A DNA stretch of 40,723 nt from Eubacteriales bacterium (lineage in GTDB: Bacteria; Bacillota; Clostridia; Oscillospirales; CAG-382), in contig JAZTXY010000138.1 of NCBI GenBank assembly GCA_045636665.1, positions 1 to 40,723 of the forward strand, written 5' to 3'. Made by a program: the position numbers. Below, one piece after another: positions 36,001 to 39,000 of this stretch (the stretch's first letter is position 1; every line of letters begins with the position of its first letter).

Positions 36001-39000
36001 CCGCTTTTATCGAGTCCGCGTGAACGGTCGGTTTTGTAAAAACGATCGAAAACGTGCGGAAGCTCTTCCTTGGGGATGCCTTGACCGCTGTTGCGAATCA
36101 CAAACTGCGCTTTGCGGTTTTTCTTTCCGTCAGAAACGAAGCCGAGCTTTATCGATATCGTTCCCTTTTCGGGGGTAAACTTGACCGCGTTATCCATAAG
36201 GTTGAATATTACGCGGTGGATAGAATCGGGGTCGGCATTGACAAAAATATCATCCTCGCCCGTGTCGAATTCGATTTCGATATGCTTCCTGCTTATTTTG
36301 GATTCGAGCGAAATAAGAACCGTTCTTGCGGTTTCGGAAAGGTTGAAATCCGACATTTTAAGGTCCTTGCCGCTTTCAAGACGCGAAACCTCAAGCAAAG
36401 TATTGACAAGACGCGAAAGGCGTTTTACCTCTTGCGATATAATATTAAGGTACTTTTCGTGCTGTTCGGGCGGTATCGTTCCGTCCAAAATACCGTCGAC
36501 AAAGCCCGAAATCGTCGTCATGGGGGTGCGAAGGTCGTGGCTTACGTTGCCGAGGAAGGAATTTCTTGCCTCGTCGATTTGTTTAAGCGAAGCCGCCATA
36601 TCGTTGATAGCAACAGCCAATTCCGCAACCTCATCCTGACCGTCATATTCGATTTTTGTGTCGAATCTGCCCTTGGAATAGTTTTTCGCCGCAGAAATGA
36701 CCTCGCTTAACGGGTCGGTGGTGCGTTTCGAGATAACGTAGAGCGAAACCATCGCCGCAAGGAACATCCAAAGCGAAACGGTTACCGCAACGATAACGAT
36801 ATCCTTTGAAAAGATGACCGAGGAATAGTTGCTCATGCTGACAAGCACGATAAACGGCTGTTGACCGACATAGGCAACCTGATAGTTGTTCATTCGGTTG
36901 CTTTTAAAAAAGCTGTCGATGTTGCTTATCAAATAGCTGTCGGTTGTCGAGAGCATTTGACCGAGCGACGTTTCGGAAAGATAAAACCTGCCCGTTGTAT
37001 AATTCTTATCCGACGTTCCGACAAGTCTTCCGCCGAGATCGAAAACATAAATATCGGCATCGACCTTCGAAGCGGAATAATTAAGTATCTGTTGAAGGTC
37101 GCTGTATTCACCAAACGAATCGTAAATGCGGTTATATCCTTCTTCTTCAAGATAAATATCAATCAAAAGCGCGGTCGTACCTGCCGAGCCCGACATCGTT
37201 TCGTGCTGGATATTATAGCTGTCGGCGGCAATACGCGAGGAAACGGCAAAAAGTATTGCGGTGATACACGCAATGAGTATTACCGTAAAAGTGGCAAGAT
37301 ATTTTCCGAAAATACTCTTAAACACTTAATTTTCCGCCTTTCTCACATTTACTTCATAATCTTATCATATAAAAATGAATAATACAAGAATTAAATATTA
37401 ATTTTCTTGTAAACGAATAAAGGCAAAAGAGCCATTCCGCTTAATGCACAACGACCGACGAGGATAGGCTCTTATATAAATCATTTAAGCCCTTTTAGCG
37501 TTTTACAGCCCTTGACCGCAATTTATTGCGGTATATCACCAATGCGGAGCATTGTATATCATCGTTGCGAAAGCGGTATACAGCCTGCGGCTGATGATAT
37601 ACACGCTACGCGTGATGATATACGCCTAACGGCGATGATATACCATTGCTTTCGCAATGGATAAAAAAAAGAACGAAGCGATTGCTTCGTTCTTTTTTTG
37701 GTGACCCGTAGGAGAATCGAACTCCTGTTACCGCCGTGAAAGGGCGGTGTCTTAACCGCTTGACCAACGGGCCATTAATGGTAGCGGAAGTTGGACTTGA
37801 ACCCACGACCTATCGGGTATGAACCGATTGCTCTAGCCAACTGAGCTATTCCGCCATGTTTTCGCGCATTTTCCGCGACAGCTTGGTTAGTATAGCAGAT
37901 GAAAAACGATTTGTCAATAGGTATTTTGAATTTTTTTGTAATTTTTTCAAAAAAAATTTTTGCGTTCCTTATTGACAGATTTATAAGCGCGTGATATTAT
38001 ATATGTGCATTCTTATCCAGAGTGGCGGAGGGAACTGCCCGACGAAGCCACGACAACCTACAATTTATGCAAGGTGTCAATTCAGTAGTTTATTTAAACG
38101 AAGATGAGATGTTTCAAGAGTTTCGGTTTATAACTATGCCCTTTGAACATCTTGTCAAAGGGTATTTTATTTTGCAAAAAAAATTACTTACATAACAAGG
38201 AGAACAAAAAATGAGAAAATTTTTCACCTCTGAATCCGTAACCGAAGGACATCCCGATAAGATCTGCGACCAAATTTCCGACGCAGTGCTTGACTCGATA
38301 CTTTCCGTTGACCCCATGGCTCGCGTTGCTTGTGAAACCGCTTGCACCACCGGTCTTATTCTCGTAATGGGCGAAATCACCACCACCGCAAAGCCCGATT
38401 TCCAAAGCATCGCGCGTGAAACCGTTCGCAATATCGGATACGACCACAGCGACAAGGGCTTTGACTGCGACACCTGCGGCGTTATTACCGCAATTCACGG
38501 TCAATCTCCCGACATTGCAATGGGCGTTGACAAGGCGCTTGAAGCAAAGACAGGCGAAATGAAGGACGACAAGGACACCGGCGCAGGCGACCAAGGTATG
38601 GTTTTCGGCTTTGCTTGTAACGAAACTCCCGAGCTTATGCCTATGCCCATCTCGCTTGCACAGCATATGTCCAAGCGTCTTTCCGAGGTTCGCAAGAACG
38701 GCACTCTCCCCTATCTCCGCGCAGACGGCAAAACTCAGGTTACCGTTGAATACGAGGATAATAAGCCCGTTCGTGTTGACGCTATCGTAGTTTCCTCTCA
38801 ACACGCAGAAGAAATCAGCCTTGAACAGATTCGCGAGGACATCATCCGCGAGGTTATTATCCCCTCTGTTCCTGCTGAATATATGGACGATAACACCAAG
38901 ATTTACGTTAACCCCACCGGACGCTTCGTTGTCGGCGGCCCTCACGGTGACAGCGGTCTTACCGGCAGAAAGATTATCGTTGATACCTACGGCGGATATG

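What a model noticed while it worked through the whole genome (the two positions that open the first line are those of the whole stretch)
37470..37668. Word-and-hairpin arrays: a ~200-nt structured element class that trails seven tRNA loci and has five further copies
Right after the terminator of seven tRNA genes or clusters (C8:26790-27095 Gln-UUG, C14:58130-58340 Glu-CUC, C22:15045-15200 Val-UAC, C86:119820-120035 His, C98:14490-14700 Leu-CAA, C124:18925-19135 Phe, C138:37470-37668 Glu-UUC) lies a ~200-nt array on one plan: an opening hairpin, an 8-9-nt word repeated 2-4 times, each copy followed by a short GC hairpin with a GNRA-, UUCG- or tri-loop, then the reverse complement of the word 1-4 times, again spaced by hairpins. 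The word differs between arrays (GTATATCA, CGTGAAGT, ATGAAGCG, ACAACATC, TGATATCC, GTATGTAA), so what is kept is word/anti-word complementarity, a ladder of helices with side hairpins. Five more arrays with the word AGTTATGA (C86: [...]
Evidence so far: All tRNA flanks printed in call 154. Scripted search (8-mers, one mismatch, all forward copies before all reverse copies): 12 of 12 regions give 2-4 forward and 1-4 reverse copies; in 11 of 12 none of 30 shuffles reaches that, 1 of 30 for C86 His. The AGTTATGA family was first seen as a blast family, 80-85% identical over ~310 nt, patchy in relatives (5 of 50 family genomes, call 107). At the orthologous tRNA-Arg-ACG gene other species of the genus carry arrays with other words (GATATCAT, ATGTAATC, TGAAATAT) where this genome has a T-loop unit. 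cmscan at E<=0.1 or 0.05 over 6 of the 12 arrays found no family.
(Added by a program. Inside this text positions count along the whole contig: contig position 1 is position 1 of the stretch shown here. "Call 12" and the like, gene names such as g00115 and contig names such as C1 are that model's own, and its searches are not shown. The text may have been shortened before it was handed on; [...] marks where a part breaks off. The agent that wrote the report below was given it as the finding of a first reader that could run no searches.)

Follow-up and report, generated by a model that had tools for sequence, protein, structure and literature searches.

The report
Gut-1-type repeat cassette behind a tRNA
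The array behind the tRNA-Glu gene is a real, divergent copy of a repeat already catalogued as the "Gut-1 RNA motif", and the evidence suggests a copy-and-paste DNA element that settles at transcription terminators more than a dedicated RNA gene.

Summary
Window 37515-37660 carries three exact GATGATATAC words at 21/20-nt spacing, facing two good and one degenerate inverted copy. Every gap is a GC hairpin. The array sits directly behind the bidirectional terminator of tRNA-Met/tRNA-Glu.

It is not an unmatched class. Rfam Gut-1 (RF01706, function unknown) hits the right half at 30.1 bits (cut-off 50). Other arrays of this genome reach 46.8 bits, and 69 of 121 genomes of the family score over the cut-off. 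True Gut-1 hits show the same plan, often mirrored and often starting just after a tRNA's CCA.

The evidence favours a DNA-level repeat:
- Stems are almost purely Watson-Crick, with no strand-specific G-T signal.
- Loops are c(GNA)g or c(GNNA)g on one strand of each unit.
- Three near-identical terminator+array cassettes follow three different tRNAs in one relative.
- A sister family sits as a 322-bp insertion inside terminator loops, with clean empty sites in relatives.
- A 99%-identical relative carries a different cassette at this very locus.

A quarter of canonical arrays lack the mirrored half, and the words are variants of one 7-mer. Word/anti-word pairing is therefore not the core conserved feature. 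No expression data could be obtained, and the function remains unknown.

The parts
37779..37855 (-). tRNA-Met(cat), first gene of the two-tRNA operon. A promoter-like site lies at 37917-37889(-).
   Evidence: ARAGORN, Rfam tRNA 63.3 bits, promoter scan 11 of 12
37699..37773 (-). tRNA-Glu(ttc). Its 3' CCA end is followed at once by the terminator.
37664..37699 (.). Bidirectional intrinsic terminator: 16-bp perfect stem, 4-nt loop, with an A-run and a T-run inside the arms. In relatives this long hairpin is part of the repeated cassette.
   Evidence: I1, 16 nt, 100%. Searches show identical terminator+array behind three different tRNAs in G012.
37643..37660 (.). Outer hairpin CCATTGC-TTTC-GCAATGG. 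It reads GAAA on the tRNA strand. An inverted copy of it lies at the centre (37565-37574).
   Evidence: I14, I9
37593..37643 (+). Right half: three exact GATGATATAC words (37593, 37614, 37634). They are separated by hairpins 37602-37614 (loop TAC) and 37623-37634 (loop TAAC). This is the part that Rfam Gut-1 matches.
   Evidence: D1. Gut-1 at 37571-37646(+), 30.1 bits, E = 3e-4, model positions 1-77 of 77.
37581..37593 (.). Central hairpin CAGCC-TGC-GGCTG
37515..37581 (+). Left half, the mirror image of the right half. It has hairpin 37515-37532, word GTATATCA(C) at 37531, and hairpin 37540-37554 (loop GGA). Then come word GTATATCATC at 37554-37563, imperfect hairpin 37564-37576 (loop GAAA, two T-G pairs) and degenerate word GTATAC at 37576-37581.
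   Evidence: (D3, I2, I3, I6-I8, I10, I12)
35853..37325 (-). Neighbouring gene: sensor histidine kinase (HAMP, HisKA, HATPase_c). The array lies between the tRNA terminator and this gene's upstream region. It is not part of the element.

Best explanation
The array is one copy of a large, fast-turning-over family of non-coding repeat cassettes. Their direct-repeat half is what Rfam lists as the Gut-1 motif.

A unit is about 21 bp: a 7-10-nt AT-rich word plus a short, perfectly Watson-Crick GC palindrome. Three to five units stand in tandem, usually facing a mirrored set, and a long hairpin stands at one end. Behind tRNA genes that long hairpin doubles as the tRNA's terminator.

I read it as a DNA-level, non-autonomous element of the MITE or REP/BIME type. 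Its hairpins matter when the DNA is single-stranded. It is copied, by transposition or by gene conversion, to places defined by intrinsic-terminator hairpins and tRNA 3' ends. It probably has no dedicated cellular job, and any RNA made from it would be a by-product of read-through.

Shown: the class membership, the repeat behaviour, the clean insertion sites of a sister family, cassette replacement at this locus, and the DNA-like hairpin signature.

Inferred: that the single-stranded form is DNA, that the words are recognition or micro-homology sites for an unknown mobilising activity, and that this particular copy arrived by the same route. No terminal repeats or target duplication were found for it.
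For: 1. Class. Gut-1 hits the window at 30.1 bits and other arrays of this genome at 46.8, 42.1 and 39 bits. In the family, 95 of 121 genomes have a hit at E <= 0.001 and 69 of 121 score over the cut-off. None of 14 control genomes scores over the cut-off. All 16 top-scoring loci I printed show word-and-hairpin units, and most carry the mirrored half.

2. Repeat behaviour. Relative G012 (1.7 Mb) has 49 hits. Nine pairs of + and - hits lie about 100 nt apart, and many hits lie at contig ends.

3. Cassette identity. In G012 a cassette of about 290 nt follows tRNA-Ser-gga, tRNA-Gln-ttg and tRNA-Ala-ggc. It comprises terminator, both array halves and a tail. The three copies differ at only a few positions over the shared stretch. 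Identity starts at the base after CCA. The same terminator+array follows tRNA-Tyr in G072 and tRNA-Val in G016, which are different genera.

4. Insertions. Two AGTTATGA copies of this genome are 322-bp insertions inside the loop of an intrinsic terminator.
- C87 is filled here and empty in G123.
- C8 is filled here and empty in G123 and G125, with TTTGG on both sides.
- The C86 copy is present in G143 and absent in G123.

5. Turnover at this locus, among 28 genus loci with a tRNA-Glu flank:
- 10 carry arrays, of 5 word types.
- 1 carries a remnant.
- 3 carry only another element class.
- 13 carry nothing.
- 1 is too short to judge.
G123 is 99% identical in the flank yet has a different terminator and a TATGGAAT array. 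G138 carries a hybrid array.

6. DNA signature.
- 199 of 298 spacers are perfect hairpins of at least 4 bp, against 6-10% after shuffling.
- There are 1302 Watson-Crick pairs. Allowing G-T pairs lengthens the stem in only 7 spacers on one strand and 10 on the other.
- Loop polarity is coherent in all 58 arrays that have at least 2 classifiable loops and are not mixed. Another 2 of the 73 candidates are mixed 1:1, and 13 have fewer than 2 classifiable loops.
- On the G..A strand the loops are GNA 87, GNRA 35, GNYA 27 and other 50. The closing pair is 5'C-G3' in 184 of 199. This fits d(cGNAg) mini-hairpins, whose stability depends on the closing pair (PMC3201870; only the start of the abstract in the search listing was seen).

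7. Both mirror arrangements exist: 50 arrays with units pointing to the centre and 8, including the window's, pointing away. No one direction of transcription is kept.

8. No promoter-like site lies on either strand next to the array.

9. By a crude ORF call, 14 of the 16 arrays away from tRNAs that have an ORF on both sides lie between convergent (9) or tandem (5) gene ends.
Against: - For the window's own copy I found no terminal inverted repeats beyond the array itself, no target duplication and no clean empty site. The terminators of relatives differ, so the borders cannot be set.
- No mobilising enzyme was identified. Y1 (IS200/RAYT-type) transposase is not found in the two highest-copy genomes examined. 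The one family copy whose flanking ORFs I scanned sits between ordinary genes.
- tRNA 3'-end duplications, the mark of integrase-type insertion, flank only 2 array loci (L098, L100). All other array-bearing flanks lack one.
- The strand-coherent G..A loops are also compatible with RNA, since GNRA is a classic RNA tetraloop.
- Weinberg et al. rated Gut-1 'RNA? Y' (PMC2864571, table seen).
- Arrays persist behind the same tRNA loci across several genera. An example is tRNA-Thr/Tyr in L012, L013, L028, L032, L040 and L045. This could mean selection for a function.
- In an unbiased sample, all 16 canonical arrays next to a tRNA lie downstream on the tRNA's sense strand. Read-through RNA would therefore carry them.
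- I have no expression data at all.
Confidence: 0.5

Rival explanations
1. It is a structured non-coding RNA, as Rfam files Gut-1 (Gene; sRNA). The RNA would come from read-through of the tRNA terminator, or from a convergent transcript ending at the bidirectional terminator. It would fold into hairpins with exposed AU-rich words, or into the word/anti-word ladder. It would act as a sponge or protein-binding platform, or as a nuclease entry site (RNase III, Y or E) that destroys read-through RNA and insulates the next gene.
For: - Gut-1 match over the whole model, and Weinberg 2010 rated the motif as likely RNA.
- Strong fold on both strands as RNA, z = -6.1 and -7.0.
- 35 loops are GNRA.
- Canonical arrays next to tRNAs are always downstream on the sense strand, 16 of 16.
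- A non-palindromic tail is conserved beside many cassettes.
- Arrays persist behind the same tRNAs across genera.
Against: - There is no strand-specific G-U signal in about 1300 stem pairs.
- 87 GNA triloops and 27 GNYA loops are not classic RNA motifs.
- The two halves carry their G..A loops on opposite strands, and both mirror arrangements occur.
- No promoter-like site lies by the window's array.
- The array sits behind, not before, a strong terminator.
- Occupancy of the orthologous locus is patchy: 10 of 28.
- Sister copies behave as insertions.
Confidence: 0.25
2. It is a protein-binding array on double-stranded DNA. The 10-bp words lie two helical turns apart (20-21 bp), in direct and mirrored sets. 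This resembles iterons, plasmid centromeres or the sub-terminal transposase sites of Tn7, Mu or IS21-type elements. Alternatively it could be a REP/BIME-like site for gyrase or nucleoid proteins behind a heavily transcribed gene.
For: - The spacing is 21/20 bp in the window and 18-25 bp in most arrays.
- Words are uniform within an array and differ between arrays, as iterons do between replicons.
- The position is behind highly transcribed tRNA genes and at gene 3' ends.
Against: - This reading gives no reason for the spacers to be perfect palindromes of free sequence with c(GNA)g loops.
- About nine word variants in one 1.8-Mb genome would need as many cognate proteins.
- No partner gene travels with the arrays.
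- The same GTGAAAT word occurs in very different taxa.
Confidence: 0.12
3. It is a host-used single-strand DNA signal. Stable mini-hairpins would keep SSB off the AT-rich words on the lagging-strand template. That could create priming or restart sites behind genes where forks meet heavy transcription. The mirrored form would serve forks from either side.
For: - The hairpins have a DNA-type signature.
- As single-stranded DNA both strands fold very well, z = -7.9 and -8.3, and MFE equals centroid.
- In the mirrored layout either strand offers one half with G..A loops.
- The location is behind tRNA genes.
Against: - The idea rests purely on inference and no factor is identified.
- Patchy occupancy of orthologous loci and insertion polymorphism fit a dispensable element better.
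- Direct-only arrays would work for one fork direction only.
Confidence: 0.1

Closest known systems
Gut-1 RNA motif (Rfam RF01706; Weinberg et al. 2010, PMC2864571)
   Same: It has the same unit plan: three short hairpins separated and flanked by a 7-nt (G)UGA(A/U)AU word. Seed rows with GUGAUAU words resemble the window's GAUGAUAUAC. The covariance model aligns end to end to 37571-37646(+). Intermediate-scoring copies in the same genome bridge to true members.
   Different: The window's half scores 30.1 bits, below the 50-bit cut-off. The published model covers one half only. In the passages and files I saw I found no mention of the mirrored second half. I also found none of the long leading hairpin or terminator, the position after tRNA CCA ends, or the repeat and insertion behaviour. 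In 2010 the motif was known only from gut metagenomes. Here it is assigned to genomes of one Clostridia family and beyond.
REP/BIME and REPIN elements of proteobacteria
   Same: Both are short extragenic palindromes in clusters of alternating orientation, at gene 3' ends, in many copies, with structure more conserved than sequence. Both are insertion targets and mobile units.
   Different: REP units are single imperfect palindromes with a conserved head, and RAYT (Y1) transposases mobilise them. Here the units are word plus perfect mini-hairpin. Y1 transposase is not found in the two highest-copy genomes. The comparison with REP rests on my own knowledge, not on a call.
MITEs that settle in hairpins, and class C group II introns that target terminators
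   Same: The AGTTATGA sister family is a 322-bp non-coding insertion with similar ends. It shows presence/absence between relatives, a short duplicated target (TTTGG) and a site inside a terminator loop. The preference for terminator stem-loops recalls IIC introns and REP-targeting IS elements (recalled, not tested).
   Different: The window's tRNA-trailing copy shows no such ends or duplication. No transposase or intron ORF is associated.
Streptomyces telomere and parvovirus terminal fold-backs (single-strand DNA hairpin arrays with GNA loops)
   Same: Both are packed palindromes with 3-nt G..A loops closed by C-G, nested inside longer-range pairing (recalled from the literature). The loop rule matches.
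   Different: Those lie at the ends of linear replicons and serve end replication. The arrays here are internal, multi-copy and in Clostridia. The resemblance is in how they might fold, not in membership.

Membership tests
Gut-1 (RF01706) | Covariance-model score at or above the curated gathering score (50 bits) | tested here: not met
   The window scores 30.1 bits, E = 3e-4 to 1e-3. The best score in this genome is 46.8 bits. 69 of 121 family genomes have hits over the cut-off.
Gut-1 (RF01706) | Three hairpins separated and flanked by a repeated UGA-type 7-mer | tested here: met
   Full-length alignment to model positions 1-77, with the three stems and four words in register. The unit plan also shows.
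Gut-1 (RF01706) | Continuity with accepted members | tested here: met
   The orthologous tRNA-Glu locus of G133 carries a canonical GTGAAAT array. Seed rows use GUGAUAU. Scores in the own genome grade from 14 to 46.8 bits.
Gut-1 (RF01706) | Acts as an RNA (filed as Gene; sRNA) | not testable with these tools
   The only RNA runs found held relatives' tRNA and metK contigs and gave no cover of the array. No promoter-like site was found. There is no strand-specific G-U signal.
MITE | Terminal inverted repeats and target-site duplication at the borders of this copy | tested here: inconclusive
   The array is itself an inverted repeat, but no distinct ends or duplication were found. Relatives' terminators differ, so the borders cannot be set. 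The sister family meets this feature.
MITE | Multi-copy, non-coding, with presence/absence polymorphism between close relatives | tested here: met
REP/BIME (RAYT-mobilised) | A Y1 (RAYT/IS200-type) transposase in genomes that carry many copies | tested here: not met
   PF01797 gave no match in G109 (35 hits) or G084 (33 hits). G000, G012 and the array-poor G087 have only short partial matches (42, 49 and 35 of 121 profile positions), two over the cut-off and one under.
Integrase-type islet at a tRNA gene | A direct repeat of the tRNA 3' end at the far border | tested here: not met
   Scores above the shuffled controls appear for the other element class (C33, C126, C86:74704, C81, L095, L096). 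Among arrays they appear only at L098 and L100. The window's flank scores 6.0, against a control maximum of 8.5.
Tandem intrinsic terminators | A GC hairpin followed by a T-run at each unit | tested here: not met
   The scan lists no terminator-like site inside 37515-37660. The words are mixed A/T, not T-runs.

The most novel reading that the evidence does not exclude
Gut-1-type word-and-hairpin arrays are not RNAs. They would be a previously unrecognised kind of bacterial DNA element that works in single-stranded form. Ultra-stable c(GNA)g mini-hairpins would present short words to an unknown, hairpin-guided copying or recombination activity. That activity would place whole terminator+array cassettes exactly at tRNA 3' ends and inside terminator loops. 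This would amount to a REP/RAYT-like system of gut Clostridia, with a cross-phylum reach to Akkermansia, and with an enzyme still to be found.
Probability: 0.3. Interest if true: 0.75.

Novelty: new variant of a known kind. Interest (0 to 1): 0.5.

Why it matters
Gut-1 has sat in Rfam since 2010 as an orphan 'sRNA' known only from gut metagenomes.

This work places it in genomes. It shows that the catalogued motif is usually half of a mirrored array attached to a terminator. It ties the motif to tRNA 3' ends, and it finds copy-and-paste behaviour with a DNA-type hairpin signature.

If the DNA reading is right, three things follow. A widely distributed 'RNA family' is really a mobile or structural DNA repeat. 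Its hairpin covariation is no proof of an RNA. And an unknown terminator- and tRNA-end-targeting mechanism awaits discovery in abundant gut Clostridia.

On the practical side, these cassettes break MAG assemblies at tRNA loci. They also supply the terminators of tRNA genes, so they matter for annotation.

Tried and rejected
- Expression. The single run search returned 3 metatranscriptome runs holding only 5-9% of the sampled words. When laid, their contigs were mostly 90-95% alike and covered the kinase gene, the tRNAs and metK. They gave next to no cover of 37310-37612. As contigs from relatives, they say nothing about transcription of the array.
- Integrase or att model, with the words as arm-type sites. 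I rejected it because arrays are not bounded by tRNA 3'-end repeats.
- RAYT or IS200 mobilisation found no support.
- Two inverted arrays flank a 455-aa gene in G012. It is a predicted surface protein, judged by eye from a signal-peptide-like start and a C-terminal hydrophobic anchor. It is not a transposase.
- A G057 copy lies between an ABC-transporter gene and an AraC-type regulator gene.
- No autonomous element with the MITE-like end motif turned up in this genome. The first pattern script had a faulty reverse pattern. The corrected search found only the known copies.
- Words as anticodon- or codon-like triplets matched to the neighbouring tRNA: no correspondence, judged by eye.
- A closing stem between the first hairpin and the array centre is clear in some subfamilies and in the window (I9). 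Over 34 canonical arrays it is weak: median longest complement 6 nt, against 4.3 after shuffling.
- Promoter reading of the conserved cassette tail gave only poor -10 candidates by eye. It was not pursued.
- The viral contig scan gave about 7 of 120 loci that look like real arrays. This gives no sign that the arrays are a phage feature.
- Pfam annotation of all array neighbours was not run.
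Full report
**What is in the window**

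Reading 36900-38100 with ARAGORN shows tRNA-Met(cat) at 37779-37855 and tRNA-Glu(ttc) at 37699-37773, both on the minus strand. A perfect 16-bp bidirectional terminator follows at 37664-37699 (I1). The array follows at once.

On the plus strand, the repeat finder gives GATGATATAC at 37593, 37614 and 37634, with spacings of 21 and 20. The mirror copies are GTATATCATC at 37554-37563, GTATATCAC at 37531 and a degenerate GTATAC at 37576. Every gap is a hairpin, and no nucleotide lies outside a word or a hairpin.

The word, with up to 1 mismatch, occurs 6 times in the window, 5 of them here. Shuffles give a mean of 1.63, and 0 of 100 reach 6.

Both strands fold into the same ladder of word/anti-word helices with side hairpins. 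As RNA, z = -6.1 and -7.0. As DNA, z = -7.9 and -8.3, and the centroid equals the MFE.

The core is 37515-37660. The next gene on the minus strand is a histidine kinase. A promoter scan finds the tRNA promoter and the metK promoter, but nothing convincing beside the array.

**The other arrays of the genome**

I laid the genome: 139 contigs, 1.82 Mb, 45% GC.

- All seven tRNA-trailing arrays are present: 7 of the 21 tRNA-cluster flanks with 330 nt of DNA, out of 24 printed.
- Five other flanks carry a different element (see 'noticed in passing').
- The five AGTTATGA copies are present.
- Further arrays lie at C79, C97 (two) and C123.
- A scan that asks only for direct repeats with hairpin spacers finds 21 places in the genome and none in two shuffled genomes. 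Thirteen of the 21 have at least 2 reverse-complement words nearby.

**It is a known motif**

With E-value thresholds, Rfam Gut-1 (RF01706) aligns end to end to 37571-37646(+) at 30.1 bits (gathering score 50, E = 3e-4 to 1e-3). The model's consensus is itself a word-and-hairpin array: GUGAAAU, hairpin, GUGAAAU, hairpin, GUGAAAU, hairpin, GUGAAAU. Elsewhere in this genome it reaches 46.8 bits (C97), 42.1 (C14) and 39 (C98).

In a sample of the family:

- 95 of 121 genomes have a hit at E <= 0.001.
- 69 of 121 score over the cut-off.
- Counts reach 35 hits per genome (at most 35 candidates were scored per genome in that run).
- None of 14 control genomes scores over the cut-off.

The 16 top loci I printed all show word-and-hairpin units and, in most, the following plan:

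1. Often a tRNA ending in CCA.
2. A long hairpin or terminator.
3. AAC(T/G)AAAT.
4. Three or four hairpin+GTGAAAT units.
5. A centre.
6. Three or four ATTTCAC+hairpin units.

In G012 the model hits both halves on opposite strands in nine places.

Gut-1 was described by Weinberg et al. 2010 as a likely non-coding RNA found only in human gut metagenomes. I saw the table, passages and seed alignment. Searches for RF01706 and 'Gut-1 RNA/motif' found no later functional study. A 2021 microbiome RNA survey does not name Gut-1, and it warns that palindromic candidates may be REP elements or terminators (passages).

**Anatomy of the class**

I curated 73 candidate arrays from this genome and the fetched loci.

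*Spacers.* 199 of 298 spacers are perfect hairpins of at least 4 bp, against 6-10% after shuffling. At 5 bp or more the figures are 48% against 1% or less.

*Loop polarity.* I read each half from the outside toward the centre.
- 58 arrays have at least 2 classifiable loops, all of one polarity. Fifty have T..C loops and 8 have G..A loops.
- The window belongs to the minority of 8, together with C8:26908 and C124.
- 2 arrays are mixed 1:1.
- 13 have fewer than 2 classifiable loops.

The unit is therefore polar. The strand with (G/A)TGA-type words carries T..C loops, and its complement carries G..A loops. Units can point toward the centre or away from it.

*Stems and loops.*
- The stems hold 1302 Watson-Crick pairs. 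Allowing G-T pairs lengthens only 7 spacers on one strand and 10 on the other.
- On the G..A strand the loops are GNA 87, GNRA 35, GNYA 27 and other 50.
- The closing pair is 5'C-G3' in 184 of 199.

This is the rule for very stable DNA mini-hairpins, d(cGNAg). I saw only the start of the abstract of PMC3201870 in a search listing. The tetraloop rule d(cGNNAg) is recalled.

One caveat applies. Arrays were oriented by their loop majority, so the total of 151 G..A loops against 0 T..C loops is partly by construction. The within-array coherence is not.

**Is the mirror essential?**

A scan of species-representative genomes for three GTGAAAT words found 124 loci in 2 of 64 parts of the collection, an estimated 6800 stretches in all.

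- 84 of the 124 have hairpin spacers.
- Of the 67 with enough DNA downstream, 42 have at least 2 anti-words, 8 have one and 17 have none.
- The record labels are gut Clostridia: Oscillospiraceae, Ruminococcaceae, Acutalibacteraceae, Christensenellaceae and unclassified. Three Akkermansia or Akkermansiaceae MAG contigs carry direct-only arrays.
- A tRNA lies within 120 nt in 16 of the 84, always upstream on the same strand.
- In viral contigs only about 7 of 120 loci look real.

So the direct array is the core module. The mirrored form is frequent. The words are variants of one conserved 7-mer, not free sequences held only by complementarity.

**Repeat and mobile behaviour**

1. In G012 a cassette of about 290 nt follows three different tRNA genes (Ser-gga, Gln-ttg, Ala-ggc). 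It comprises terminator, both halves and a tail. The copies differ at only a few positions, and identity begins at the base after CCA. The same terminator+array follows tRNA-Tyr in G072 and tRNA-Val in G016.

2. The C87 and C8 copies of the AGTTATGA family are 322-bp insertions inside the loop of an intrinsic terminator.
   - Relatives G123 and G125 have the intact terminator.
   - The C8 copy is flanked by TTTGG on both sides.
   - The C86 copy is present in G143 and absent in G123.
   - These elements, and a high-copy family in G109, share end hairpins of the type GTGTCC-TTAA-GGACAC.

3. At the window's own locus there are 28 genus loci with a tRNA-Glu flank.
   - 10 carry arrays of five word types: TATATCAT, TATGGAAT, AATGATG, GTGAAAT and CATATCAT.
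   - 1 carries a remnant.
   - 3 carry only the other element class.
   - 13 carry nothing.
   - 1 is too short to judge.
   - G143 (98% flank identity) has the same array, with one loop change.
   - G123 (99%) has a different terminator and a TATGGAAT array.
   - G138 has a hybrid of the two types.

4. Arrays away from tRNAs lie mostly between convergent or tandem gene ends (crude ORF calls).

**What I could not show**

- For the window's copy there are no distinct ends, no target duplication and no clean empty site.
- No mobilising enzyme was found. Y1 transposase is missing from the two highest-copy genomes. Neighbours of the copies I looked at are ordinary genes.
- tRNA 3'-end duplications bound the other element class, not the arrays.
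- Expression could not be tested.

**Reading**

The evidence rests on six points: the perfect Watson-Crick palindromes, the lack of any strand-specific G-U signal, the c(GNA)g loop rule, the two mirror arrangements, the missing promoter, and the cassette and insertion dynamics.

Together they fit a DNA-level repeat whose hairpins act in single-stranded DNA and which spreads to terminator hairpins and tRNA 3' ends (confidence 0.5).

Templated correction within quasi-palindromes (recalled) could keep the stems perfect while their sequence drifts. The hairpin 'covariation' behind the RNA call would then not be decisive.

The RNA reading stays open (0.25). The sense-strand position behind tRNAs and the persistence at some tRNA loci favour it. 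Double-strand protein-site arrays (0.12) and a host single-strand DNA signal (0.10) explain fewer features.

**Verdict**

The class is a divergent, mirrored variant of a catalogued but unexplained motif. Three things are new here: its full architecture, its genomic homes, and the evidence that it behaves as mobile DNA.

Noticed in passing
G000 C33 (tRNA-Arg-acg), C81 (Arg-cct), C86:74704 (Leu-gag), C126:22713 (Gln-ctg), C14:50687 (Ser-gga); L092, L095, L096, L100: A second kind of tRNA-trailing element of about 130-160 nt, with motifs such as GAAGGGCG...GTGTTGAATGAC and a GGG-loop hairpin. It is followed by a direct repeat of the last ~15-21 nt of the tRNA, and often of its terminator, as a tiny integrase-type islet would leave.
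   Followed up: partly
window 38010-38110 (+) and 38211-39386 (+): A SAM-I riboswitch (74.8 bits) with its own promoter-like site at 37972-38000, ahead of a 391-aa ORF that looks like metK by eye. This is ordinary.
   Followed up: no
G084 C76:1622-2217, C29:20762-22296, C14:34772-35106; G080 (L029): Whole terminator+array units repeated head to tail with a period of about 260-280 nt, up to three or more in a row.
   Followed up: no
L126, L130, L185 (Akkermansia and Akkermansiaceae MAG contigs): Direct-only GTGAAAT arrays with GC-rich hairpin spacers in a different phylum. This means horizontal spread, deep conservation or binning error.
   Followed up: partly
L079 (G140:C106), locus positions 1510-1584: At the place of tRNA-Glu(ttc), ARAGORN calls a tRNA with anticodon ATC ('Asp-atc'). 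That is a one-base change in the anticodon, or an assembly error.
   Followed up: no
G012 C13:2391-4527 (L070): Two arrays in inverted orientation bracket a single 455-aa gene. By eye it encodes a surface-type protein, with a signal-peptide-like start and a C-terminal hydrophobic anchor.
   Followed up: partly
window 39412-39850: A purine/pyrimidine-skewed low-complexity stretch that gives long K/E-rich and F/L-rich ORFs on both strands.
   Followed up: no
G000 C35 (contig ends at tRNA-Tyr, 17399); many contig starts in G109, G057 and G012: Contigs break right at tRNA 3' ends or inside arrays. These cassettes therefore fragment short-read MAG assemblies, and tRNA and array counts in MAGs are underestimates.
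   Followed up: no
L097 (G121), flank of tRNA-Glu: A different short direct repeat (CTCTTCA-type words, no hairpins) follows the terminator at the orthologous locus.
   Followed up: no
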